64,000 nucleotides of DNA, taken from Omnitrophica WOR_2 bacterium GWF2_43_52 (GTDB taxonomy: Bacteria > Omnitrophota > Gorgyraeia > Gygaellales > UBA12090). The stretch's first letter is position 1; the number at the start of each line of letters is the position of its first letter. Below are positions 4,938 to 55,127 of the stretch, in pieces. The notes below the pieces were generated by a model. The model was not told the DNA's origin. It worked only from the letters and a program-made list of their open reading frames with translations, and made no database searches. The DNA lies in NCBI GenBank assembly GCA_001805445.1, contig MHGF01000034.1, positions 33,929 to 97,928 on the forward strand, read 5' to 3'. The position numbers and the translations under genes are program-made.

Positions 4938-5190
4938 CACTAGTACACCGTGACATAAATTACTGTTATATAGGGCGGAGGTCCTGTCAAGGTTATGTCT
5001 TCGCGGGGACGAACGGCTCAGCTCCTGCGGCAGGCCTCACTCGGCGTAAATTTCTGCACGCCTCGCTCACCGCTCGGCGGCCAAGCTGCAAAAATTTCCG
5101 TACGCCCCGCTCACACATAACCTTGCCACCCCCGCTTTCAAGATAAAGCGCGGTAGCATGAATTTATGTCATAACGCACTAGTGTATAGG
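4938..5190 (+). repeat. MITE-like repeat family A, copy 1 (~250 bp, imperfect terminal inverted repeats, highly structured core)
   Basis: Left end cactagtacaccgtgacataaatt, right end catgaatttatgtcataacgcactagtg (inverted). Core gggcggaggtcctgtcaaggttatgtcttcgcgggg...gcaaaaatttccgtacgccccgctcacacataac shared with 54905-55127 and, inverted, 34271-34513. Confidence 0.6.
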
Positions 5191-8974: not shown

Positions 8975-9415
8975 TTATTGTTCTCTCCAGCTCCAGGCTG
9001 CTTGAATATCGTTTGCAGTATCAATATTAGGAGTCTCGATGTTGGTAATTTGTAGGCTAATTTGTCTTTCGGCTATCGGGTTAGCCGCGGCATCTAAAGT
9101 CTGTCCTGCCGAAATAATGTTCCTATTGACGCCACCAAGAGTATTTACAGTATAGCCATATCTTCCACTGCCAAAGTTTTGCCATGGTGAGTTAAAAGGG
9201 AACAGGCCTCCGGGATTATTCCTGATCCAAATTTTAGCCTCTTCAATTCCAGCCTGCGCCAAATACAAGGCAATCAGCCCGTCCCTGTCAGATGAGCGGG
9301 TGCGTAGCTCCGATTCCCACATTGAAGCAAGCCCTGAGCCTAAAATAGCAAAGACAGCTGTAACAAAGAGGATAAAAATCATGGCCTGGCTTTTTACATT
9401 GCTAAATTGTTTCAT
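8975..9415 (-). CDS. PilX-like minor pilin / pseudopilin (N-terminal hydrophobic segment without canonical G|FTLIE)
   Basis: MKQFSNVKSQAMIFILFVTAVFAILGSG... Its N-terminal region is paralogous to that of the 31488..32597 product. Confidence 0.45.
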   Translation of the reverse strand: MKQFSNVKSQAMIFILFVTAVFAILGSGLASMWESELRTRSSDRDGLIALYLAQAGIEEAKIWIRNNPGGLFPFNSPWQNFGSGRYGYTVNTLGGVNRNIISAGQTLDAAANPIAERQISLQITNIETPNIDTANDIQAAWSWREQ

Positions 9416-9425
9416 TGTTAAATTG

Positions 9426-9797
9426 CTACACAGTTAACCGATCATTAGTAAATTTAATCAAGGAGTTGACTTCTTTAGGTAATCTCTCTAGTTCGCCAGA
9501 GATATGCAGATATTCGTTGTTTCCCAGCAATTTTCTTTTATTTGCTTTTTCCGCCCAATCCACGCTTTCCTCTATTGAACCATAACTGTAGCGATAGAAA
9601 TTAATCTTATCCTTCTTAAAATATCTCCCAAAACCTTCCGCGATATTAGCTGAGATAGAATCGACTGCTTTAACCAGTTGTCTACCCACGGTATCTTTAG
9701 CAAAATAATCCCATTTAATCACTATTCTCCAGATATAATTAGATAAATCAAAAGCAATTCTATAGGAACTCAAGTCTTTTAGCCCCAGATATTTCAT
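9426..9797 (-). CDS. four-helix-bundle protein (TIGR02436 / 23S rRNA IVS protein / Avd-like family)
   Basis: ...RQLVKAVDSISANIAEGFGRYFKKDKINFYRYSYGSIEES... carries the S(I/V).ANIAEG and GS..E signatures of the family; 123 aa. Confidence 0.7.
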   Translation of the reverse strand: MKYLGLKDLSSYRIAFDLSNYIWRIVIKWDYFAKDTVGRQLVKAVDSISANIAEGFGRYFKKDKINFYRYSYGSIEESVDWAEKANKRKLLGNNEYLHISGELERLPKEVNSLIKFTNDRLTV

Positions 9798-9827
9798 AAC
9801 AATTTAACCTTTTGACAATTTAGCAAT

Positions 9828-10418
9828 TTAATTCCTCGGCCTCACCTGCGTGCGCAGGGTGTAATCGCGGTTTTCCCTGCCGATCGGCAGCGTTGGTTGT
9901 GGGCGGACGGTGAGCTCAATAGTATACAATCCTCCTCCGGCATCGGTAAAAAGGGCGTTGCCGCTGGGATTAGGAAGGACAATAAAATTTGCTAATTCTT
10001 CCCAAGCGCTCCAGGCGCTCCAAAGAGGCCCCGGAGGGCCGGTTCTGGTTCTTTGTCTCCTTTGTATCTGCGCAGTCGCCCCTGCGGGCCTTCGAAATTG
10101 TACCTGAATATCTCCAATATCAACGTCATTGTCACCGTCAGAATCTCTGCCGAGCTGTATGCCGTTACCTACGAGGATAATCTGAGTTTGTGCCCATGCA
10201 GGAGCAGCGCTTACAGTGGCGTGTCTTACCTCGTTTGCCATAAATTCCATTGCCCAACGGGCATTCTGGACTAAATCAAGGGTGTTTCTTTGTTTGCGCC
10301 AGGCCTGTTGTACGGAGGAAAATATGCCGCTGGCTCCCGCCATAACCAATCCAAGGACGGCAATGGCGACTAATACTTCAAGTAAGGTAAAACCCTTTTC
10401 ATTGCTACATTGTTTCAT
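9828..10418 (-). CDS. type IV prepilin-like minor pilin
   Basis: MKQCSNEKG|FTLLEVLVAIAVLGLV is a class III signal with Glu at +5; 196 aa. Confidence 0.75.
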   Translation of the reverse strand: MKQCSNEKGFTLLEVLVAIAVLGLVMAGASGIFSSVQQAWRKQRNTLDLVQNARWAMEFMANEVRHATVSAAPAWAQTQIILVGNGIQLGRDSDGDNDVDIGDIQVQFRRPAGATAQIQRRQRTRTGPPGPLWSAWSAWEELANFIVLPNPSGNALFTDAGGGLYTIELTVRPQPTLPIGRENRDYTLRTQVRPRN

Positions 10419-10458
10419 GGCTAAATTGCTAAGCCTGTTAACAGTTTGACCGTTTGTT

Positions 10459-10902
10459 TTAATAATTCGCCTTTAAGGTTGATACGGAGATATTCCTTGC
10501 AATACTCCCATCTGTCCAATCAACAGTGGTATTTAGTAATTTTAGCTGCGCAGGGCTTATCGGGCCATCAGAAATTGTTAACGTAGGAGTATAGATAATA
10601 TTGTTAAGCGTAACTGCAGGGCGTCCGTTTACCTGGTTGGTTACTATACCATCAAGCCCATCTAACTGGTCAAGGCTTGTCCAATCCGAATACTGTTCCA
10701 GAACCGCTCGGGCTAAATTATAGGCAATAGTTTGCTGTTGGGTTTTTCTCGCGGCTTTGGCGCCTGCGGCAAACACACTAACCACAGTCCCTGCTACTAA
10801 TCCCAGAACAGCAATGGCAATGGCGACTTCAATGAGGCTGAAGCCCTTTATAACCATCTTTCTTTTTTTTAGCAGACCTGTGGCTAGTTGATATTGTTTC
10901 AT
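10459..10902 (-). CDS. type IV prepilin-like protein
   Basis: ...VIKG|FSLIEVAIAIAVLGLVAG. Long leader if it starts at MKQ; the alternative start MVIKG gives a 5-aa leader. Confidence 0.7.
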   Translation of the reverse strand: MKQYQLATGLLKKRKMVIKGFSLIEVAIAIAVLGLVAGTVVSVFAAGAKAARKTQQQTIAYNLARAVLEQYSDWTSLDQLDGLDGIVTNQVNGRPAVTLNNIIYTPTLTISDGPISPAQLKLLNTTVDWTDGSIARNISVSTLKANY

Positions 10903-10954
10903 GGTTAAAATGCTATAAGCAATTTAGCAATTGAGCAGTTTGACAGTTTAAGGC

Positions 10955-11479
10955 TTATTGTACCCTCACATAGCCGGTGTTGTTAAAAACCTGCACAGTT
11001 CTGGTTTTGCCTTGGGCGTTGAGCGTAATGGTTGTGGTGCCAGCGCTTGAGGCGTTTCCTTGAGGAAAAAGAAAAGAGAATTGCGTCAAAGGGAGTACTG
11101 ATACTAAATCAATTCCTGCGCTTAATGTTCGCCGTTTTATTTCTTCATTGGCATCAGGCGCGCTATTCGCGTTTAGATCGTCGTAAATGGCATAGCTTTC
11201 GCTTGAGGTATCAAAAACCACAATCTGATTTCGGTGTTTAGCTACTGCCATCTGGCGCATCCAGCAGAGGTCAGCGGCAATTGACCGGGCATCAAGCGTA
11301 AGCCTGTTTCCAGTAAGAGAAGAAAATGAAACCATGCTTAAGGCGCTGAGTGTGGCGATAATGGCAATGACAACCATGAGCTCTATTAGGGTAAACCCCG
11401 TTGGAAACCCTATCTTCTTTGCGGGTCGCCCTGTAGTTTCGAACGGGGTAAAGCTGGTTATATAGTTACATTGTTTCAT
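10955..11479 (-). CDS. type IV prepilin-like protein (long leader)
   Basis: ...GFPTG|FTLIELMVVIAIIATL; 174 aa. Confidence 0.7.
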   Translation of the reverse strand: MKQCNYITSFTPFETTGRPAKKIGFPTGFTLIELMVVIAIIATLSALSMVSFSSLTGNRLTLDARSIAADLCWMRQMAVAKHRNQIVVFDTSSESYAIYDDLNANSAPDANEEIKRRTLSAGIDLVSVLPLTQFSFLFPQGNASSAGTTTITLNAQGKTRTVQVFNNTGYVRVQ

Positions 11480-11508
11480 GGCTACATTGTTAAAACAAAA
11501 GCACCTTT

Positions 11509-16739: not shown

Positions 16740-16785
16740 AGTTTTTAGGTTATCAGAAATAGAGAATCTGTATCATAATAATGGT

Positions 16786-17099
16786 TCATTCGTAAATTTT
16801 GTGGATAGTGTGCTTCACGAAACTAATACTTTTTTCGCTCAGGACGATTTTTTCACGTCAAAAAGTCTCTCACAGTTTCGGCGACTGCGGAACTCGCCCG
16901 TCAGCTTGCGCCAGGACGGGCTCAAACATCCTCGTCGTCCGCTATTACATTAGTGGCGGATTCCCGAAACTGTTCGGACTTTTTGACTAAAATCGTCATT
17001 CGCTGAAAAAACCATTAGTTTCATTGCGCACAGTAATTTTAGCGTTTCTCTTTTACTATTAAATAGTTACGATAACTGCTCCACATTATTTGCGAATGA
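16786..17099 (+). repeat. MITE-like repeat family B, copy 1 (~314 bp, 16-bp TIRs tcattcgtaaattttg / cattatttgcgaatga)
   Basis: About 90% identical to 31156-31469 in the same orientation. The interior folds as nested inverted repeats (gacgatttt/aaaatcgtc, gtcaaaaagtc/gactttttgac, cagtttcgg/ccgaaactg, gcccgtc/gacgggc). Confidence 0.65.
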
Positions 17100-31122: not shown

Positions 31123-31155
31123 GGCCCATTCTCCTTCTTTAGGTAATTTAAGGTC

Positions 31156-31469
31156 CTTTCGTGAATTTTGTGATTAGAGTAGTTTGCGAAACTAATAATT
31201 TTTTCGCTCAGGACGATTTTTTCACGTCAAAAAGCCTCTCATAGTTTCGGCGACTGCGGAACTCGCCCGTCGGCTTGCGCCAGGACGGGCTCAAACATCC
31301 TCGTCGTCCGCCACTATTGCACAGTGGCGGATACCCGAAACTATTCGGGCTTTTTGCCTAAAATCGTCATTCGCTGCAAAAACTATTAGTTTCGCTATGC
31401 ACAGTGATCTTAGTGATGCCCTTGATTATCAAACAGTTATGTTACTTGCTCCACATTATTTACGAATGA
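31156..31469 (+). repeat. MITE-like repeat family B, copy 2
   Basis: Collinear with 16786-17099, including the terminal cattatttacgaatga. Confidence 0.65.
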
Positions 31470-31487: not shown

Positions 31488-32597
31488 TTATTGTTCCTGC
31501 CAGGTTGTTGACGAGAAATTCCCGGAAATGCCCATGCCGGTAGTGTCTACATACCTATCGGCATATTTAAGTTCAATATTGCCTCTGAGGTAAATAGCGG
31601 CTCCCATCAGGCCGCCTTCATTGTGTATACAATTAAAATCTATCGTTCCGTATTGCGTATAAATCAGGCCAGTAAAGTCGCGGCTTGAAGAAAGGTCCCC
31701 ATCTGGCGCAGAAGAAATAATGTTTCCGTTTTGTGTAGCCAAATTCGGAAAAGTTTCCGGCCCACCTTGTTTATTATGGGCAGAGATACTCATTTTTCCA
31801 ATTCCAATAATGGTAATGTTTCCTTCGGCAACGATACTTGTTTTTGAAAAAGTGATTTTATTGTTTCGATTAGTGCCGGTATCAATAGTGACATTTCCCG
31901 TAACGTAATAAAATTTGTTGTTATAACTGTTCTCTGCAAAAGTAGAAGAGCCGTTAGTGTAGTTGCATTGATTGCCGCAGGTTTTAGCATAATCTTCAAA
32001 ATACGTCATATTAATCGCGGGGATGCTGGTTGGCCCGACAATAGCAGTTGCATTTGAAGGCGGAGGAAAGGTCCAATCTTCGTCTTCATTGATCGTTGCA
32101 TCACTATCATCCCCTTCAAAATTTGGCGAGGCGATAGTTCCGTTGACGCTTATAGAATAACCGCTGGTATTATTCCAGTCAAACCTGTCTCCTCCTGCCG
32201 CGACGTTACTAAAGCCTCCCTGGGTAAGCGTAAGGTTTACCTGCCGCAGCGCGCGGTAGTTTGCCTGAGAAGGAACGTAACCTGTTGTAATAACAGTGAG
32301 TGCGTTGCCTGAGGAGGTGCAGTTACAGGCGTATTGCCCTGGCCCAAATGTGTGAGTTACATTGGTAATATTCGTGCAGTTAAAATTCCGGGAGAGTTGG
32401 TTTTGCGCCCATTGCGCTCCGGCCTCGGCTATATTGAGTGCTTGTTCAGAATTAAGGGTACGCAGGTTTATTTCAAAATCGCCGGACTCAAGATTGAGTA
32501 ATGCCCAGCCCAGAATGCTAAAAACCAGCATCGCGAAGATGACGATGATCAGGGCGGCCGCTTTATTATTACCGTGTATATTGCTAAATTGATTCAT
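31488..32597 (-). CDS. PilX-like minor pilin, Asn-rich with many N-x-S/T sequons
   Basis: MNQFSNIHGNNKAAALIIVIFAMLVFSILGWALL is paralogous to the N-terminus of the 8975..9415 product. About 15 NxS/T sequons in 369 aa. Confidence 0.45.
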   Translation of the reverse strand: MNQFSNIHGNNKAAALIIVIFAMLVFSILGWALLNLESGDFEINLRTLNSEQALNIAEAGAQWAQNQLSRNFNCTNITNVTHTFGPGQYACNCTSSGNALTVITTGYVPSQANYRALRQVNLTLTQGGFSNVAAGGDRFDWNNTSGYSISVNGTIASPNFEGDDSDATINEDEDWTFPPPSNATAIVGPTSIPAINMTYFEDYAKTCGNQCNYTNGSSTFAENSYNNKFYYVTGNVTIDTGTNRNNKITFSKTSIVAEGNITIIGIGKMSISAHNKQGGPETFPNLATQNGNIISSAPDGDLSSSRDFTGLIYTQYGTIDFNCIHNEGGLMGAAIYLRGNIELKYADRYVDTTGMGISGNFSSTTWQEQ

Positions 32598-32639
32598 TGT
32601 TAAATTGTTAAACGATCATTGGTAAATCTAATAACCTTA

Positions 32640-32745
32640 ATTAATTGTTTGCCCACAGTATCCTTGGCAAAATAATTCCATTTAAGCATAGTTTCCCGCA
32701 TATAATTTGATAAATTAAAAGCAATTATATGCGTACGTATATCTT
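32640..32745 (-). pseudogene. truncated remnant (N-terminal ~35 codons) of a four-helix-bundle gene paralogous to 9426..9797
   Basis: Nucleotide collinearity between 32640-32745 and 9690-9800 (ttgtttgcccacagtatccttggcaaaataattccattt.. versus ttgtctacccacggtatctttagcaaaataatcccattt..). Minus-frame translation ..LKDIRTHIIAFNLSNYMRETMLKWNYFAKDTVGKQLIK, then a stop. Confidence 0.5.
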
Positions 32746-32999
32746 TTAACTCCAGCAGTTTAGCAATTTAACCATGTAACAATTTAATTCCATCACTTTA
32801 ACTCCAGCAGTTTAACAATGTAGCCATGTAACAATTTAATTCCGTCACTTTAACTCCAGCAGTTTAACAATGTAGCCATGTAACAATTTAATTCCGTCAC
32901 TTTAACTCCAACAGTTTAACAATGTAACCATGTAACAATTTAATTCCGTCACTTTAACTCCAGCAGTTTAACAATGTAGCCATTTAACAATTTAATTAA
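32741..32999. repeat. tandem array, 5 copies of a 52-53-bp unit carrying the pilin 5' motif
   Basis: Unit ctttaactccagcagtttaacaatgtagccatgtaacaatttaattccgtca starts at 32745, 32798, 32850, 32902 and 32954. It contains catggctacattgttaaa (minus strand), identical to the start-codon region of the 10955..11479 gene. Confidence 0.8.
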
Positions 33000-33553
33000 A
33001 GGTTTCTCGGATACACCTTTGTTTTTATTGTCTTAGACTGCGTGCCCGACTGAAACGTCGCGTTAATATCTATCCGATAGACATCGGTCGCGGTAGGCGC
33101 GACAAGCGGCGTCGTAATAAGCTGGTTAGTTTTATTGTAATAACTAAAGGTGAAATTGTTTACCCCTGCGGCAAGGATGTCGGTATTACGCAGTAAATTA
33201 TTGCCTGATACTTGATAGGAAATTGACGTGCTCTTGGTGTCAGTAAACTGTAATTGCCAGGCGCTGGCGGCTGCAAGCGAGTCGGCATCCCGCATCTGCC
33301 GTATTTCCCTTGACATTCTCATCAGCGCCAGCCTTCCCTGCGAAATCACTTCATTACGAAAGGAAAGGAAACGCCAGAGATTAACGGTTTCTCGGATATA
33401 GAGCGACGAGATGCCGGTTAAGATTCCCACGATAACGATTACCGTAATCAGTTCAATCAGGGTTACGGCTTTGGTTGAGTTTTTTTTACTCGTTTTCTTT
33501 TGTGTTGTCATATAAAGATACAGAGAGTACTGAAAAAATACCTTTTTACACAA
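32996..33553 (-). CDS. type IV prepilin-like minor pilin (FimT/PilW-like)
   Basis: ...NSTKA|VTLIELITVIVIVGILTG. The likely start is the internal MTTQKK at about 33511. Confidence 0.65.
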   Translation of the reverse strand: MCKKVFFQYSLYLYMTTQKKTSKKNSTKAVTLIELITVIVIVGILTGISSLYIRETVNLWRFLSFRNEVISQGRLALMRMSREIRQMRDADSLAAASAWQLQFTDTKSTSISYQVSGNNLLRNTDILAAGVNNFTFSYYNKTNQLITTPLVAPTATDVYRIDINATFQSGTQSKTIKTKVYPRNL

Positions 33554-33602
33554 AGTCGTGTTTACCTTAATTTTTCAGCAACCTCATACATTAAGTTTGC
33601 GC

Positions 33603-34270: not shown

Positions 34271-34513
34271 ACATTAGTACATTGTTACATAAGTTTTTAA
34301 AATAGCTGTAAAAATGGGTGGCCGGGTTGTGTTTGAGCGGGGCGTACGGAAATTTCTGCGGCTTGGACTCCGCCGCAGGCGGAGCGCAGAAATTTACGCC
34401 GAGTGAGGCTTGCCGCAGGAGCAAGCCGAACGTCCCCGCGAAAACATAACCTGGACAGGACCCATTTTTACCATCATATCTATCAAAGAACTTATGTAAC
34501 AATGCATTAGGTA
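34271..34513 (-). repeat. MITE-like repeat family A, copy 3 (inverted orientation)
   Basis: Core is the reverse complement of the 4973-5150 core (gagcggggcgtacggaaatttctgcg...). TIRs cattagtacattgttacataagtt / aacttatgtaacaatgcattagg are homologous to the copy 1 TIRs. Confidence 0.6.
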
Positions 34514-36352: not shown

Positions 36353-36491
36353 CGGCGCGCTCTCTTAGGTGTGTGTATTAAAAGATGCAAAAACTTTTCT
36401 CACAAGGCTCGCTTTAGAGGTTACTGAAAAATTAAGGTAAACACGAATTTGTGTAAAAAGGTATTTTTTCAGCACCCTCATTCTATTTTGC

Positions 36492-40168: not shown

Positions 40169-41914
40169 TTACAGCTTAAATTTGGTCACCATGTTTTTAA
40201 GTGATAGAGAAAGATTAGAAAGCTCCTGCGCGGACGCTGACATTTCTTGCATTGAGGCAGTCTGTTCCTCGGTTGAGGAAGAAACCTCTTCCGCGGTTGC
40301 CGCTGATTCTTTGGCAATGCTGGAGACGTCGTTAACAGCCTTAGAAACGAGCTCATTATCTTTTACCTGCTGCTGCATAGAAGTAGATATCTGATTTGCC
40401 ATGGCGTTGACTTCTTGCACAGCCTTGTTGATCTCGCCGAGGATATCGGTTATCTTGGTTACTTCGGCTCTGCCTTCCTGCACTTCTTTGGAACTTGCCT
40501 GTATGGCGCTGACTGCTTCCTGAGTCTCTGACTGAATGGATTTAATGAGTTTTCCAATCTTTCGCACTGCCTCGGCAGAGCCTTCGGCAAGCTTTCGCAC
40601 CTCTTCGGCGACAACCGCGAAGCCGCGTCCTGCTTCACCGGCTCGCGCTGCCTCGATGGCCGCGTTTAATGCCAGAAGATTGGTTTGGTCGGCGATAGAA
40701 GTAATGGTATCGGTGATTTCACCGATAGCCTGGGATTTTTCTCCCAAGCCCTGGATGACTTTCGCGGTTGAGACAACCGTGTCCGCGAGCCGGGTGATCT
40801 TTTCCACCGCTTCCTGGGCCGCGGTTTTTCCGTTCTGGGCGTAATTTGAGGCTTGGTTTACCGCGCTTGAAGTGCTTTGGGCATTAGCTACCGCTTGTTT
40901 TAAGTTTACCGATGACCTTTCCATTGCCAGGGAAGTCTGCGAGCTCTTTTCTGCCTGGGTGCTGGCGCCTTTGGCAACATTGTTGATGGCGGTAGATACT
41001 TCCTGGGTTGAGGCATTCATTTCTTCCGCAGAGCTGGATAGTTCTTGCGATGACGAGGCAACTTTATCCGCGGTTGAGCGCACCTCAAGGAATATCGCGC
41101 GGAGTGAGTCTAAAAGTTTGTTGAACACCTCGCCAAGCCTGCCGAGTTCGTCTTGAGAGCTTATCTTTATCTTATCCGCGGTCAGGTCTCCCTGGGCTAT
41201 TCGTTCCGCGGTAGCAACTACCTGTTGCAAAGGAAGCGTAATTTGGCGGATGATTAACACGCAGATGATGAGGATTAAGACAATGTCTCCAAGGCCAATC
41301 ATAATCAAAAGGAAGGTCCTCCATCTGATGGTAGCTGTCCCGCGCTGCTCATCAACTTTGTTTCTTTCGATGGACATAGAAACCACCTTGTCAACGCCGA
41401 CGCGGTGCTCTTCGTATTTTTCATTGAGAAAAGTTTTGGCTAATTCCCGCGCCTTATCCTTTTCACCCTTTTGAATGAGAGGAATGAATTCATCAAAGAA
41501 TTTCTTATGGAATTCAATAGCCGGATTATACGAAAGGCTGATGATCGCGTCTCTGAGTTCTTTATCCGTTGCCAGATCTCCAAAACTTTCAGAGATCCAG
41601 TACTCATGGCGGGTGTCGTATTCGCTTTTTAAGAATTTGGCATTTTCAATGAGCTTCTCAATCTTTACGGAATTTGTTTCATCAAGAAGCTGAAGGCTGA
41701 TGAGATAGGTTTCAATGATATATTCAGGTGGAGGAAGGACATCCGCGATAAGGTCTTTTCCCTGCACAATCCTCTTATAGAGGGGGCCGTTGACCTTTAC
41801 CGTGTTCAATGTCCAATACGACATTATCCCAAAGATAAAAAACCCTAGTATTGATACCCCAGCCAGCAGCATCAGGCGCAGCTTTATGCTAAGGCCTTTG
41901 ATTACATTCATCAT
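40169..41914 (-). CDS. methyl-accepting chemotaxis protein (TM, HAMP, MA domain)
   Basis: [25 protein letters not shown]; signalling hairpin [33 protein letters not shown]. Confidence 0.9.
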
Positions 41915-50693: not shown

Positions 50694-52799
50694 ATGGGGA
50701 AAAAATCATATACCAGTATACGGGTGAAGCTGTTGAGGTGGTTTATCCTTATCTCTATAGGGCCTCTATCGTTAGCTAGTATCCTTATCTACCTTAACAG
50801 CCGTACCATAGTAACCGAAAGAATCGCCAGCGAATTAAATATCTTGACCAAAGGTATTGAAGGAAAGGTAGCGGCATTTATCGAAGGTAAAAAAGGCAGG
50901 ACCCTTGATTTCTGTTCAGATGGTGTGGTCAAAGACGGCCTTACCTATTACGATCCTGATGATTCTGCCGTAGCGACTCTGGTCAAAAATACCAATAATC
51001 ATTTAATTAAAAACAAGATGTCCTTGGATAGTTATTTAGTGGATCTTATGATAATTAATCTCAAGGGAAAAGTCGTTTTTGCCACGAATGATAAGCTTCT
51101 GGGAAGGGATGAATCAAAGAAGGAATATTTTATTAATATCAGTAAATATTTTAAAGATAAGGCAATGCAGGAGAAACTAAAAAAAGATCCTACAGTCTTA
51201 GTCTATGCTACGGATTTTTATATGGCAGAAGATTTAGGCAAGCCGGTATTAGCCATAAGCAATGTGGTTACCGCGCGGGCAACATCGCTTCCTTTGGGGG
51301 TATTGGTTAACCGCTATAAGGGCGATATGCTTAATCAGGTGCTTGCGGAAGAAGGCGATACCTTAGGAACGGGCGGAAAGTCCTATGTGGTAAATAAGGA
51401 TGGTTTTCTATTGACCATACCTAAATTTATGGAAGGAAAAGGCGATCAGGTTATTCTTAAGGAACAGCTTAAGAGTTTTCCCATCATTCAGGCGCAGAAA
51501 AAGTCAGTAGGAACAGACGCGAAAACGTATCAGGATTCTACCGGAAAGACTGTTTTGGGCTCGGCTATGATTGATAAGGCAAAAGGCTGGATTATTCTGG
51601 CAGAACGGGACGTTAAGGTGGCATTCGCCCCTTTAAACAGCTTAGTAAGTCTCTTATGTATCATAGGTATTATAGCGCTGGTGATTGTAATCTTATTGTC
51701 AATCTTTATCTCAGGACGGATTGCCAGCCCTATTCTAAAACTTTTAGGTATTTCTGAGGTGATTACCAAGGGAGACTTAACGACAGAGGTTAACGTTCAC
51801 AGTAATGATGAAATAGGCCGTTTAGCGGATTCTTTTAAAAGTATGGTTGGCGCTATGCACGATATGGTTTCTCAGGCGCTGAGTACCGCGGATAAAGTTG
51901 CTTCGTCAGCACAAGAGCTATCCAGCTCTTCGGAAGAAATGAATGCCTCTACCCAGGAGGTATCCACGGCGATTCAGAATGTGGCAAAAGGCGCGATAAC
52001 CCAGGCTGAACGCGCGGCCCAGACTTCAGAGGCAATGGAGCAGGCATCGGTAACCTTAAAAGAAGTGGTCGCGAATGCCCAGAGTACGACAAACGCGGTA
52101 AATCAGGCAAGCGCGCGCGTGCAAAAGGGTAAGGCCACTGCTCAGGAAGCAGTGAATAAGATTACCGGTTTGACCGATACGGTTGTCTCAACCGCGAAAG
52201 TCATCCAGGGCTTAGGAGAAAAATCCCAGGCTATCGGTGAAATCACTGATACTATCACTTCTATTGCCGACCAGACCAATCTCCTGGCATTAAACGCGGC
52301 CATAGAGGCGGCGCGTGCCGGTGAAGCAGGCCGCGGCTTCGCGGTTGTTGCCGAAGAGGTGCGAAAACTTGCCGAAGGTTCTGCCGAGGCAGTGCGAAAG
52401 ATTGGAAAACTCATTAAGTCCATTCAGTCAGAGACTCAGGAAGCAGTTAGCGCGATACAGGCAAGTTCCAAAGAGGTGCAGGAAGGGCAGGCTGAGGTAG
52501 CCAAGATAACCGATATCCTCGGTGAGATCAACAAGGCAGTGCAGGAAGTCAACGCCATGGCTGGCCAGATTACGACTTTAATTCAGCAGCAGGTTAAGGC
52601 TAACGAACAGGTTACTAAGGCAGTCAATGATGTTTCGGTAATTGCCAAAGAATCAGCGGCAACCGCGGAAGAGGTTTCTTCCTCAACCGAGGAACAGACT
52701 GCCTCTATGCAGGAGATGTCCGCCTCAGCCCAGGAGCTTTCCAACCTCTCGATGAGCCTGAAGAATTTGGTTGGAAGATTCAGGGTGCGCGGAAAATAA
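50694..52799 (+). CDS. methyl-accepting chemotaxis protein with periplasmic Cache-like sensor domain
   Basis: TM-sensor-TM-HAMP-MA architecture. The C-terminal ~300 aa are nearly identical to the 40169..41914 product. Confidence 0.9.
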
Positions 52800-54904: not shown

Positions 54905-55127
54905 AAGTGCACTACTGTCATAGATTTCTCTTAGGCAGGGCGGAGGTCCTGTCAAGGTTATGTCTTCGCAGGGACGTTCGGCTTGCTCCTGCGGCAATCC
55001 TCACTCGGCGTAAATTTTCGCGCCCGCCACTAAAAGCGATGGCGGGTCCAAGCCGCAAAAATTTCCGTACGCCCCGCTCACACATAACTTTGCCACCCCC
55101 GCTTTCGAAGGTAGTGACTAGTTCAAT
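54905..55127 (+). repeat. MITE-like repeat family A, copy 2
   Basis: Core gggcggaggtcctgtcaaggttatgtcttcgcagggacg...gcaaaaatttccgtacgccccgctcacacataac, collinear with copy 1. TIRs partly degenerate. Confidence 0.6.

What the first reader, a model, noticed from the sequence alone, without database searches (positions are those of the whole stretch)
9426..9797. Avd-like four-helix-bundle gene embedded in the pilin operon; a truncated second copy marks a segmental duplication
A 123-aa TIGR02436-family (four-helix-bundle / 23S IVS / DGR-Avd-like) gene sits between the PilX-like gene and the first prepilin gene. The same arrangement recurs at 31488-33553: PilX-like gene, then four-helix-bundle sequence, then prepilin. 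There the four-helix-bundle gene is reduced to its first ~35 codons (32640-32745), roughly 75-80% nucleotide-identical to 9690-9800 by eye, and followed by the tandem array. So a pilin / four-helix-bundle / pilX module was duplicated and one copy is decaying. Four-helix-bundle proteins are the accessory (Avd) component of diversity-generating retroelements, but no reverse transcriptase is present here. A conserved association of this family with minor-pilin genes has not been described.
Basis: partly seen in the sequence, partly recalled or inferred. Interest (0 to 1): 0.5.

Follow-up and report, generated by a model that had tools for sequence, protein, structure and literature searches.

The report
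Repeat-flanked four-helix-bundle gene cassette
The small four-helix-bundle gene in this pilin operon is not a pilus or DGR component but an inserted, self-contained gene cassette bracketed by mirror-image arrays of 8-base repeats, and this layout holds for the protein's relatives in many bacterial phyla.

Summary
The gene is real. ORF 9426-9797 (-) is a 123-aa TIGR02436 / PF05635 four-helix-bundle (4HB) protein with a confident model matching Xcc0516, BT_0352 and, more distantly, Avd. A decayed second copy lies at 32603-32761. It is an internal deletion that has lost its start codon, not a 3' truncation.

The two pilin clusters resemble each other only inside the 4HB element (76-80% nt). The flanking pilins are 23-31% identical, so there was no recent module duplication. 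Pilin linkage is not conserved: 0 of 83 homologous loci carry a prepilin motif, and three orthologous pilin operons have prepilin next to PilX with no 4HB gene.

The 4HB ORF is bracketed by inverted arrays of four 8-nt repeats (TTNNATTG / CAATNNAA; element 9394-9831). About 80% of 79 homologous loci from many phyla share this layout, against 0.3-0.6% of background windows. These genes are co-oriented with their neighbours, fill the intergenic gap, and are under purifying selection (dN/dS about 0.13). A second 4HB clade carries 7-nt arrays instead.

I read it as a rRNA-IVS-like or REP/RAYT-like selfish cassette. How it moves, and whether the arrays act as RNA or DNA, remains open.

The parts
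9426..9797 (-). Intact four-helix-bundle (TIGR02436 / PF05635) ORF, 123 aa. It is the cargo of cassette 1.
   Evidence: AlphaFold2 pLDDT 94 with four helices. Foldseek 2GSC TM 0.85-0.90, 2RLD, Avd 4DWL/8UBE TM ~0.7-0.8.
9800..9831 (-). 5' (upstream) array of cassette 1: four in-phase 8-nt units TTAAATTG CTAAATTG TCAAAAGG TTAAATTG. The first unit contains the stop codon of the upstream prepilin gene (9830-9828). The 4HB ATG follows 2 nt after the last unit.
   Evidence: It is one arm of the 35-nt inverted repeat I1 (9797-9831).
9394..9425 (-). 3' (downstream) array of cassette 1: CAATTTAA CAATGAAA CAATTTAG CAATGTAA. It starts right after the 4HB stop codon. The ATG of the PilX-like gene (9415) lies inside unit 2, so MKQFSNV is encoded by the repeats.
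   Evidence: arm 9394-9428, 80% complementary to 9797-9831. Duplex -28 kcal/mol, z = -7.7. MFE and centroid folds both close the cassette with this long-range stem.
32603..32761 (-). Decayed 4HB gene of cassette 2. It keeps N-terminal codons ~2-45 and the last ~10 codons. About 200 nt are deleted internally, and 11 nt including the ATG are lost.
32745..32997 (-). Tandem array, 52 nt x 4.9 (95% matches). Each unit is four forward octamers plus 4HB codons 4-7 plus GTGACGGAA. This is an amplified copy of the 5' junction of cassette 2, made after the start codon was lost.
32576..32607 (-). 3' array of cassette 2: CAATTTAA CAATGAAT CAATTTAG CAATATAC. It overlaps the remnant's stop codon and the ATG (32597) of the second PilX-like gene (MNQFSNI).
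10920..10951 (-). Solo forward octamer array (TTAAACTG TCAAACTG CTCAATTG CTAAATTG) in the junction upstream of the 147-aa prepilin gene.
   Evidence: It pairs with 10397-10428 at -25 kcal/mol, z = -3.2. It does not form a significant local hairpin.
10397..10428 (-). Solo reverse array (CAATTTAG CCATGAAA CAATGTAG CAATGAAA). It supplies the start codon and the MKQCSNEK leader of prepilin 9828..10418.
11466..11489 (-). Solo reverse array (CAATGTAG CCATGAAA CAATGTAA) at the start of the GspH-like prepilin gene 10955..11479.
   Evidence: 93% match to the cluster-2 array units in inverted orientation.
9828..10418 (-). Host gene upstream of cassette 1: prepilin (N_methyl; GspJ/PilW-like). Its 3' end GAGGAATTAA is conserved in orthologues that lack the insert.
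8975..9415 (-). Host gene downstream of cassette 1: PilX_N-like protein, 146 aa.
   Evidence: Orthologues are listed.

Best explanation
Window 9394-9831 is an intact copy, and 32576-32997 a decayed copy, of a self-contained gene cassette. The cassette is a promoterless ~125-aa four-helix-bundle (S23p / 23S-IVS-protein, Avd-like) gene bracketed by inverted arrays of short tandem repeats, here four 8-nt units TTNNATTG upstream and CAATNNAA downstream.

Shown:
- The cassette lies between genes of a host operon, in the same orientation, and fills the intergenic gap.
- It is an insertion relative to orthologous operons.
- The same layout holds for about 80% of this protein's relatives across many phyla.
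- A different 4HB clade carries 7-nt arrays instead.
- The protein is under purifying selection.
- Cassettes decay by ORF deletion.
- Arrays without an ORF are far commoner than arrays with one.

Inferred:
- The cassette is a selfish or semi-selfish element. It is of the kind known from 23S rRNA intervening sequences (same protein family, terminal inverted repeats, ~430 nt), and organised like REP/RAYT or an autonomous element with MITE-like derivatives.
- It is expressed by read-through from the host operon.
- The two arrays can pair into a 25-100-bp stem that loops out the ORF and buries the 4HB start and the downstream gene's start. Translation would then be relayed from the upstream gene to 4HB to the downstream gene, and the stem would be an RNase III substrate as in rRNA IVSs.
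- The pentameric 4HB protein binds the arrays, typically 3-5 units, as Avd binds RNA stem-loops in DGRs.

Unknown: the enzyme or route of mobility.

The pilin context is incidental.
For: Family and fold.

Inverted arrays around the ORF in the window:
-.
- Duplex -28 to -41 kcal/mol, z = -7.7.
- Long-range stem present in both the MFE and the centroid fold.

Generality over 79 loci from Omnitrophota, Bacteroidota, Ignavibacteriota, Patescibacteria, Planctomycetota, Gammaproteobacteria, Bdellovibrionales and Chlorobiota:
- At least 3 in-phase units upstream in 82% and downstream in 78%.
- 5-6% for the opposite arrangement and 0.3-0.6% for background windows.
- Period 8 is the strongest autocorrelation in 64/79 upstream and 61/79 downstream flanks.
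- The modal array is 4 units.

Locus-specific complementarity: matched flanks -31.7 kcal/mol, flanks from other loci -24.4, shuffled -18.4, p = 2e-7.

Operon embedding: same strand as the upstream neighbour in 72/78 and the downstream neighbour in 65/74. Median gaps are 52 and 43 nt.

Insertion: orthologous pilin operons L093, L094/L095 and L096 lack the gene. The boundary falls right after the prepilin stop codon.

Functional protein: pN 0.25 vs pS 0.82 (saturated); dN/dS ~0.13 where measurable.

Co-variation of repeat with protein clade:
- A second clade (37% identical over 38 aa) is flanked by inverted heptamer arrays (GTGAAAA... / ...TTTTCAC). Period 7 is top in 4/6 upstream and 6/6 downstream flanks.
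- This holds even in the very junction that octamer-type cassettes occupy in other Ignavibacteria.

Decay and ORF-less derivatives: window copy 2; extra arrays in 29/82 loci; strong ORF-less hairpins in L017 and L022.

Precedents:
- The Coxiella IVS is a 428-444-nt element with an S23p ORF and a 28-bp terminal stem cut by RNase III (PMC4990558).
- 23S_rRNA_IVP genes have been noted inside cas operons (PMC3936711).
- Avd is a pentamer that binds RNA stem-loops (bioRxiv 10.1101/2023.10.23.563531).
- Paired inverted arrays of 3-5 tandem 7-9-mers sit in Geobacter metallireducens operon junctions (PMC2700814).
Against: - No recombinase, nuclease or RT is encoded in the cassette, so mobility is inferred only from distribution, empty sites and junction re-use. 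No target-site duplication was identified.
- Synonymous sites between cassettes are saturated. The spread across phyla is therefore old, and recent transfer is not shown.
- Pairing strength is the same on the sense and antisense strands (-31.7 vs -31.9 kcal/mol, p = 0.89; equal G-U counts). Nothing singles out RNA as the level at which the stem acts.
- The whole-cassette fold is not unusually stable (z = -1.3).
- The solo arrays in the window do not form significant local hairpins.
- The reverse test is weak. Of 80 metagenome loci holding (ATTGTTNN)3ATTG, only one has a 4HB gene and only 12/60 have a nearby reverse array. Many arrays may be unrelated microsatellites, or may have a life of their own.
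- Protein-array binding is untested.
- Within one population (L088-L092) the arrays are invariant.
Confidence: 0.72

Rival explanations
1. First reader's reading. A pilin / four-helix-bundle / PilX module was segmentally duplicated, and the 4HB protein is a conserved accessory of minor-pilin operons.
For: Both copies lie at the same relative junction (prepilin | PilX-like) in two type IV pilus clusters of one genome. The tandem units of copy 2 carry GGAATTAA, which resembles the 3' end of the cluster-1-type prepilin gene.
Against: - Flanking proteins are 23% and 31% identical, with no nucleotide similarity outside the element.
- The remnant is equally close to cassettes of other genomes.
- 0/83 homologous loci are near prepilin genes.
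- Three orthologous pilin operons lack the gene.
Confidence: 0.05
2. An orphan or degraded diversity-generating retroelement. The 4HB gene is an Avd whose RT and template repeat were lost or lie elsewhere and diversify a pilin C-terminus.
For: The fold resembles Avd (4DWL, 8UBE; TM 0.7-0.8). The family is the usual DGR accessory (PMC10053308). Pilus and adhesin proteins are common DGR targets.
Against: - No RT-type YxDD motif in any ORF of the window.
- No repeat pair with A-specific mismatches.
- Sequence and structure are closer to the non-DGR members 2GSC and 2RLD.
- The Pfam bAvd model does not hit the protein.
- Relatives sit in housekeeping operons such as sdhA|sdhB.
Confidence: 0.03
3. 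A host-beneficial regulatory module rather than a selfish element. Two versions:
- The paired arrays are binding sites for a host nucleoid or global regulator, as proposed for Geobacter.
- The arrays are operon-internal mRNA processing or stability signals, and the 4HB protein is a domesticated RNA-binding factor that tunes expression of the genes it sits between.
For: - Strong purifying selection on the protein.
- Long vertical retention at some junctions: sdhA|sdhB in seven Chitinophagaceae-type loci, and the aconitase/leuC-like junction in Ignavibacteria.
- Arrays overlap the stop and start codons of neighbours.
- The Geobacter authors' hypothesis (PMC2700814).
- A family member was reported in a study of genes differentially expressed in Flavobacterium biofilm (PMC5787105, listing only).
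Against: - Host contexts are unrelated to one another.
- Orthologous operons function without the insert.
- Copies decay (window copy 2; L043, L048, L080, L037).
- Different clades replace one another at the same junction.
- The family also occurs inside rRNA genes, where a regulator makes little sense (PMC4990558; bioRxiv 10.1101/2024.02.27.582315).
Confidence: 0.15
4. The octamer arrays are slipped-strand phase-variation switches for the downstream (pilin) genes, and the 4HB gene is a passenger.
For: - The unit length of 8 is not a multiple of 3.
- Start codons and the first codons of PilX-like and prepilin genes lie inside arrays.
- Unit number differs between near-identical contigs L003 (3 units) and L004/L005 (5 units).
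- The 52-nt unit is amplified in cluster 2.
Against: - Arrays are identical in six contigs of this population.
- Most arrays lie outside coding sequence, next to housekeeping genes for which ON/OFF switching is implausible.
- Arrays are only 3-5 units long, with units differing in sequence, which slips poorly.
Confidence: 0.05

Closest known systems
23S rRNA intervening sequences carrying an S23p ORF (Coxiella burnetii, Leptospira; PMC4990558)
   Same: - Same protein family (PF05635 / TIGR02436).
- Same size class: 438 nt here, 428-444 nt in Coxiella.
- The ORF is bracketed by terminal inverted repeats that can form a stem of about 28-35 bp.
- Sporadic phyletic distribution, and decay of the ORF.
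   Different: - It lies between protein-coding genes of a pilin operon, not in helix 25 or 45 of 23S rRNA. No rRNA is present in the window or in 19 relatives' loci.
- The arms are tandem arrays of 8-nt units. Whether classical IVS stems are built this way could not be checked.
- RNase III cleavage is not shown here.
REP elements with their RAYT gene (REPtrons/REPINs), and autonomous element / MITE pairs such as Correia elements (own knowledge)
   Same: - A protein gene is flanked in inverted orientation by the same short repeats that also occur, far more often, without the gene.
- The repeats sit in intergenic junctions of operons.
- The repeat type co-varies with the protein clade.
   Different: - The protein is a ~125-aa helical bundle with no HUH/Y1 or other known catalytic motif.
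- The repeats are tandem arrays of 7-8-mers rather than single palindromes.
- Mobility is not demonstrated.
Paired 'global regulator binding sites' of Geobacter metallireducens (Aklujkar et al. 2009, PMC2700814)
   Same: - Pairs of sites on opposite strands.
- Each site has 3-5 tandem 7-9-nt repeats: GTTGCTYN x4; TCTCCGTS[Y] x3; MTYCTGA x5.
- They lie in intra-operon junctions (nifD|nifK, trpC|trpB2, proB|proA), at variable distance within a pair.
   Different: - Different unit sequences.
- Described as ORF-less and attributed to IHF/HU-type regulators.
- No link to four-helix-bundle genes was made, and I could not test that genome.
Avd, the accessory protein of diversity-generating retroelements (PDB 4DWL, 8UBE)
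   Same: Four-helix-bundle fold (TM 0.7-0.8). Solved homologues are pentamers. Avd binds RNA stem-loops encoded next to its own gene.
   Different: - 6-9% sequence identity.
- No RT, template repeat or variable repeat here.
- The window protein is not hit by the bAvd Pfam model.

Membership tests
TIGR02436 / PF05635 four-helix-bundle (23S rRNA IVS protein, S23p) family | Profile HMM score above the curated cutoff | tested here: met
   TIGR02436 77.4 bits (cutoff 24), E 8.8e-22. PF05635 73.6 bits (cutoff 33.8).
TIGR02436 / PF05635 four-helix-bundle (23S rRNA IVS protein, S23p) family | Up-down four-helix bundle like Xcc0516 (2GSC) and BT_0352 (2RLD) | tested here: met
   AF2 pLDDT 94.2 with helices 10-26, 31-56, 61-87 and 93-120. 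Foldseek 2GSC TM 0.85-0.91, 2RLD TM 0.7-0.83.
TIGR02436 / PF05635 four-helix-bundle (23S rRNA IVS protein, S23p) family | Conserved helix-2 motif (R)xxxSxxxNxxE, reported by Zhang and Ye 2013 (PMC3936711) | tested here: met
   S47-x3-N51-x2-E54 are invariant in 57 relatives. The window has K43 where the relatives' consensus is R.
Diversity-generating retroelement (Avd component) | Adjacent DGR-type reverse transcriptase | tested here: not met
   Only two [YF]xDD matches occur in all ORFs of at least 70 aa in the window. Both are in non-RT proteins: a 124-aa PilZ-like protein and a ResB-like protein. This was a motif scan only, not an HMM scan.
Diversity-generating retroelement (Avd component) | Template/variable repeat pair differing at adenines | tested here: not met
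   Self-blastn lists all repeats. The only long direct pair (31152-31469 / 16783-17099) differs mostly by transitions.
23S rRNA intervening sequence (IVS) element | Inserted in 23S rRNA helix 25 or 45 | tested here: not met
   No Rfam family, rRNA included, reaches gathering score in the window. None is found in 19 relatives' loci.
23S rRNA intervening sequence (IVS) element | S23p-family ORF enclosed by terminal inverted repeats that form a stem | tested here: met
   35-nt arms, 80% complementary. The long-range stem appears in the MFE and centroid folds. Duplex z = -7.7.
23S rRNA intervening sequence (IVS) element | Excision from the transcript by RNase III | not testable with these tools
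   Needs transcript end mapping or an in vitro cleavage assay. The strand-symmetry test gave no RNA-specific signal.
REP/RAYT-type system | Gene flanked by inverted copies of a repeat that is dispersed without the gene | tested here: inconclusive
   Met in form. It is unknown whether the dispersed arrays lie in the same genomes as the cognate gene. In the window, arrays occur only in the two pilin clusters.
REP/RAYT-type system | HUH/Y1 transposase | tested here: not met
   The protein is a 123-aa four-helix bundle, and PF05635 is its only Pfam hit.
Type IV pilus minor-pilin operon component | Conserved co-occurrence with prepilin/PilX genes in relatives | tested here: not met
   0/83 loci. 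Orthologous operons lack it.

The most novel reading that the evidence does not exclude
Four-helix-bundle (S23p/IVP) proteins are sequence-specific binders of the short tandem-repeat arrays that flank their own genes. Each protein clade has its own unit (8-mer TTNNATTG, 7-mer GTGARAN, possibly the Geobacter GTTGCTYN, TCTCCGTS and MTYCTGA classes).

Together they would form a widespread, previously unrecognised class of bacterial selfish repeat system. It would resemble REP/RAYT but lack any known nuclease, perhaps borrowing a host RNase III, recombinase or RT.

This reading would jointly explain rRNA intervening sequences, the 4HB genes scattered inside operons, and orphan paired arrays in intergenic junctions.
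Probability: 0.3. Interest if true: 0.8.

Novelty: new variant of a known kind. Interest (0 to 1): 0.6.

Why it matters
TIGR02436 / PF05635 is a very large family with no assigned function. One search here gave at least 3,900 relatives and another at least 7,900. At least 507 stretches matched across one-genome-per-species contigs. The family is known mainly for sitting in rRNA intervening sequences and for its kinship with DGR Avd.

A fixed, clade-specific repeat architecture around these genes gives a concrete, testable handle: does the pentamer bind its arrays, and as RNA or DNA? It links rRNA IVSs to operon-embedded copies. It also offers an origin for the paired tandem-repeat 'regulator sites' noted in Geobacter.

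For annotation, it warns against reading function from neighbours. Here that means pili; elsewhere it has meant CRISPR-Cas.

The cassette also rewrites host genes slightly. The first six or seven codons of the PilX-like and prepilin genes in this operon are made of the repeats.

Tried and rejected
- Metagenome scan with the PilX-like protein found no relatives. Orthologues came from the protein search instead.
- Viral contigs gave one weak relative (34% identity), so there is no sign of phage carriage.
- Plasmids gave one distant relative (32% identity, Pseudanabaena) with no arrays. The arrays are therefore a clade trait, not a family-wide trait.
- Rfam gave nothing in the window, nothing for the 4951-5139 repeat, and no rRNA in 19 relatives' loci.
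- DGR reading rejected.
- Idea that the solo arrays in the window's other pilin junctions are local hairpins: rejected, z = +0.5 to +0.8.
- Test for RNA-specific selection of the stem (sense vs antisense duplex energy, G-U counts) showed no difference.
- Reverse association, array to 4HB: only 1 of 80 array-bearing metagenome loci has the gene. I dropped the claim that the arrays mark 4HB genes; the association is one-directional.
- Array-length polymorphism within the window's own population: none, six contigs identical.
- Literature searches by family names, by 'Avd-like' / 'IVS-like' and by literal repeat strings found no description of the arrays around these genes. The search on octanucleotide or octamer tandem-repeat phrases turned up the Geobacter paper.
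- The Leptospira IVS papers (PMC47033, PMC196815) are not held.
- I did not test protein-residue co-variation with the ATTG vs ATGG core variants. The sample was too small and phylogenetically confounded.
Full report
**1. Observation**

ORF 9426..9797 on the minus strand encodes 123 aa. [quoted passage not shown]

- An AlphaFold2 model built on 57 relatives is confident (pLDDT 94) and shows four long helices.
- Foldseek puts it closest to Xcc0516 (2GSC, TM 0.85-0.91) and BT_0352 (2RLD).
- Bordetella phage Avd comes next (4DWL, 8UBE; TM 0.7-0.8, 6-9% identity).
- Upstream in gene order is a prepilin (9828..10418, N_methyl). Downstream is a PilX_N-like gene (8975..9415).
- By exact protein look-up, the window comes from Omnitrophica WOR_2 bacterium GWF2_43_52 / GWC2_44_8, where this gene is annotated as hypothetical.

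A second copy exists, but it is not a simple truncation.

- tblastn aligns codons 2-45 to 32761-32630 (57% identity, 1.4e-13).
- The last 16 codons align separately to 32650-32603.
- At the DNA level, 9670-9822 matches 32637-32786 (76%) and 9395-9458 matches 32577-32632 (80%).
- About 200 nt of the middle are therefore deleted.
- An 11-nt gap removes the ATG.

The 52-nt x 4.9 tandem array at 32745-32997 is built from the cassette's own 5' junction. Each unit holds four octamers, then 4HB codons 4-7 (CTGGAGTTAAAG), then GTGACGGAA. All units lack the ATG, so the amplification followed loss of the start codon.

**2.

The clusters were not recently duplicated as a module.

- The two prepilins flanking the 4HB sequences are 23% identical over 56 aa.
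- The two PilX-like proteins are 31% identical.
- blastn between 5-14 kb and 28-36 kb finds nothing beyond the 4HB element, its repeats and one unrelated 130-nt repeat.
- The remnant is as close to cassettes from other genomes (L003 77% / 85%, L006 79% / 82%) as to copy 1 (76% / 80%).

The pilin association is not conserved.

- The closest relatives (81-84% identical) lie between an LTD-domain protein and a rotamase, or inside a radical-SAM/ScmC operon.
- None of 83 loci has a prepilin N-terminal motif within 3 kb.
- Three orthologous pilin operons (PilX 44-55% identical) have the prepilin and PilX genes 5-47 nt apart with no 4HB gene.
- The alignment shows conservation up to the prepilin stop codon (GAGGAATTAA) and then the insert.

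There is no RT-type motif in any ORF of the window. The repeats present do not show adenine-specific mismatches. A DGR is therefore not supported.

**3. What brackets the ORF**

Reading the minus strand, the ORF is preceded by TTAAATTG CTAAATTG TCAAAAGG TTAAATTG (9831-9800). It is followed by CAATTTAA CAATGAAA CAATTTAG CAATGTAA (9425-9394).

- These are inverted arrays of four 8-nt units.
- The repeat finder reports them as 35-nt arms, 80% complementary, 368 nt apart.
- The first upstream unit contains the prepilin stop codon.
- The 4HB ATG follows the last unit by 2 nt.
- The downstream array begins right after the 4HB stop codon.
- The PilX-like ATG lies in the second downstream unit, so MKQFSNV is encoded by repeats.
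- Both the MFE and the centroid folds of 9385-9845 close the cassette with a long-range stem, although the overall fold is not unusually stable (z = -1.3).
- The arm-arm duplex is -28 kcal/mol, z = -7.7.

Copy 2 has the same downstream array (32607-32576), again containing the PilX-like start codon (MNQFSNI).

Further solo arrays lie at three other junctions of cluster 1: 11466-11489, 10920-10951 and 10397-10428. They supply the MKQC... starts of two prepilins. They do not form significant local hairpins.

**4. Generality**

A scan of one genome per species returned at least 507 relatives. The best 80 (56-75% identical) come from the following groups:

- Omnitrophota
- Planctomycetota
- Bacteroidota
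- Ignavibacteriota
- many Patescibacteria
- Gammaproteobacteria
- Bdellovibrionales
- Chlorobiota

Results over the 79 loci with usable flanks:

| Measure | Result |
|---|---|
| At least 3 in-phase units with an ATTG/ATGG core upstream | 82% |
| At least 3 in-phase units with a CAAT/CCAT core downstream | 78% |
| Opposite arrangement | 5-6% |
| Random 100-nt windows from the same loci | 0.3-0.6% |
| Period 8 is the top autocorrelation, upstream flank | 64/79 |
| Period 8 is the top autocorrelation, downstream flank | 61/79 |
| Unit consensus | TT-N-N-ATTG / CAAT-N-N-AA |
| Units per array | mode 4, range 3-11 |
| First downstream unit overlaps the last codons and stop, or abuts the stop | 22 of 65 |

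Further points:

- The variable positions are locus-specific and match between the two sides. Matched flanks pair at -31.7 kcal/mol, against -24.4 for flanks of different loci and -18.4 for shuffled flanks (p = 2e-7).
- The gene is on the same strand as its upstream neighbour in 72/78 loci and its downstream neighbour in 65/74. Median gaps are 52 and 43 nt, so the arrays fill the spacers.
- Some junctions are conserved within lineages: sdhA|sdhB in Chitinophagaceae-type contigs, and upstream of an aconitase/leuC-like gene in Ignavibacteria.
- The protein is under purifying selection: pN 0.25, pS 0.82 (saturated), dN/dS about 0.13 where measurable.

**5. Co-variation with the protein clade**

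Some contigs carry a different 4HB clade in the same Ignavibacteria junction. This clade is only ~37% identical over 38 aa and also hits Pfam bAvd.

- Members of this clade were fetched from Balneola, an unnamed 5.2-Mb genome and others.
- They are again co-oriented inserts: FixC|FixX-like, HD|aconitase, and inside an efflux operon.
- They are flanked by inverted arrays of 7-nt units: GTGAAAA / GTGAGAC / GCGAGAA upstream and TTTTCAC / GTCTCAC / TCTCGCT downstream.
- Period 7 is the top autocorrelation in 4/6 upstream and 6/6 downstream flanks.
- A distant cyanobacterial plasmid member (32% identical) has no arrays.

Two different clades in the same junction carry different repeats. The repeats therefore belong to the cassette and not to the site.

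**6. Arrays without the gene**

- 29 of 82 loci hold additional arrays within a few kb. These are often forward-reverse pairs 15-60 nt apart in neighbouring junctions. Some fold strongly (L017 z = -3.1; L022 z = -7.6) and others do not.
- The exact pattern (ATTGTTNN)3ATTG was searched in metagenome contigs. Only 1 of 80 loci read has a 4HB gene. 12 of 60 have a reverse array within 150 nt. The rest are solitary or microsatellite-like.
- The association is therefore strong from the gene's side and weak from the repeat's side, as for RAYT genes and REPs.

The Geobacter metallireducens genome paper described the same kind of object. It reported 24 pairs of sites on opposite strands, each with four tandem octanucleotides (GTTGCTYN). 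Two further classes had three TCTCCGTS[Y] units or five heptanucleotides. The sites lie in junctions such as nifD|nifK and trpC|trpB2. The paper proposed them as global-regulator sites and made no link to this protein family (PMC2700814).

**7. Mechanism**

Shown:

- An inserted, co-oriented cassette with no room for a promoter.
- Inverted arrays that can pair.
- A selected protein.
- Decay to ORF-less forms.
- Clade-specific repeats.

Inferred from the known biology of the family:

- rRNA IVSs carrying S23p ORFs are ~430-nt elements whose terminal inverted repeats form a stem cut by RNase III (PMC4990558).
- Solved homologues are pentamers, and Avd binds RNA stem-loops encoded beside its gene.

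From this I propose three steps:

- The cassette is transcribed with the host operon.
- The stem buries the 4HB start and the downstream start, so translation is relayed through the cassette or the stem is processed.
- The pentamer binds the 3-5-unit arrays.

The RNA level is not established. Pairing is equally strong on both strands, with equal G-U use, so a DNA-level role remains equally possible. Such a role could be end-binding sites like the subterminal repeats of some transposons. No catalytic partner or target duplication was identified.

**8. Comparison and novelty**

The gene is an ordinary member of a known family. Its presence inside unrelated operons has been remarked before for cas loci (PMC3936711).

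What I could not find described is the following:

- the fixed architecture of clade-specific tandem-repeat arrays in inverted orientation around these genes;
- the link of that architecture to orphan paired arrays.

The searchable library lacks most subscription journals. I file it as a new variant of a known kind, an IVS-like or REP/RAYT-like element. The finding as originally framed (pilin association, module duplication) is not supported.

Noticed in passing
window 4951-5139 (+), 54916-55106 (+), 34316-34462 (-): Three copies (~84% identical) of a ~150-190-nt GC-rich element. It folds into a long imperfect hairpin, and 7 predicted pairs keep pairing through changes on both sides. It has no Rfam match. 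Two copies lie beside the two pilin clusters.
   Followed up: partly
window 31152-31469 and 16783-17099: A 320-nt direct repeat (86% identical), non-coding and internally palindromic. Differences are mostly transitions, so it is not a DGR template/variable pair. One copy lies just downstream of the second PilX-like gene.
   Followed up: partly
window 10397-10951: The native 147-aa prepilin gene (10459..10902) is itself bracketed by a forward octamer array upstream and a reverse array downstream, which can pair (-25 kcal/mol, z = -3.2). A host gene thus occupies the position the 4HB ORF has in a cassette. Unexplained.
   Followed up: partly
window 32745-32997: Each 52-nt tandem unit contains GTGACGGAATTAA. 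This resembles the conserved 3' end of the cluster-1-type prepilin gene (GTGAGGCCGAGGAATTAA) rather than cluster 2's own prepilin end (CCGAGAAACCTTTAA). It may be a trace of where cassette 2 came from.
   Followed up: no
L094 3750-5040 (orthologous pilin operon, GCA_023247945.1): Three consecutive minor-pilin-region genes share the first 12 codons. Two of them also share an identical ~75-nt upstream region, and the third has a similar one. This suggests gene conversion or repeated 5' modules. The preceding gene starts inside CAAT-type octamers (CAATAGCA CAATATGG ...).
   Followed up: no
L078 995-1393, L059 2497-2889 vs L017, L024, L025, L037: In Ignavibacteria, the same junction (after ...HHADFVSFDPFK*, before MSQTLIEKIAQK...) holds either an octamer-type or a heptamer-type 4HB cassette, depending on the contig. 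This is an insertion hot spot or a case of cassette replacement.
   Followed up: partly
L221 2501-3297 (CP070762.1): Two heptamer-clade 4HB genes lie in tandem, sharing the array between them. They sit between fragments of an efflux (MFP / ABC) operon.
   Followed up: no
L003 vs L004/L005, upstream of the 4HB gene: Near-identical contigs differ by two octamer units (3 vs 5), so array length can change quickly. The window's own population (L088-L092) shows no variation.
   Followed up: partly
window 51885-52750 and 40209-41074: Two methyl-accepting chemotaxis protein genes on opposite strands share an 872-nt segment at 84% identity.
   Followed up: no
window 36417-36479 and 33523-33585: A 63-nt inverted repeat (94% identical) flanks the region holding the upstream part of pilin cluster 2 and a CheR-like gene.
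   Followed up: no
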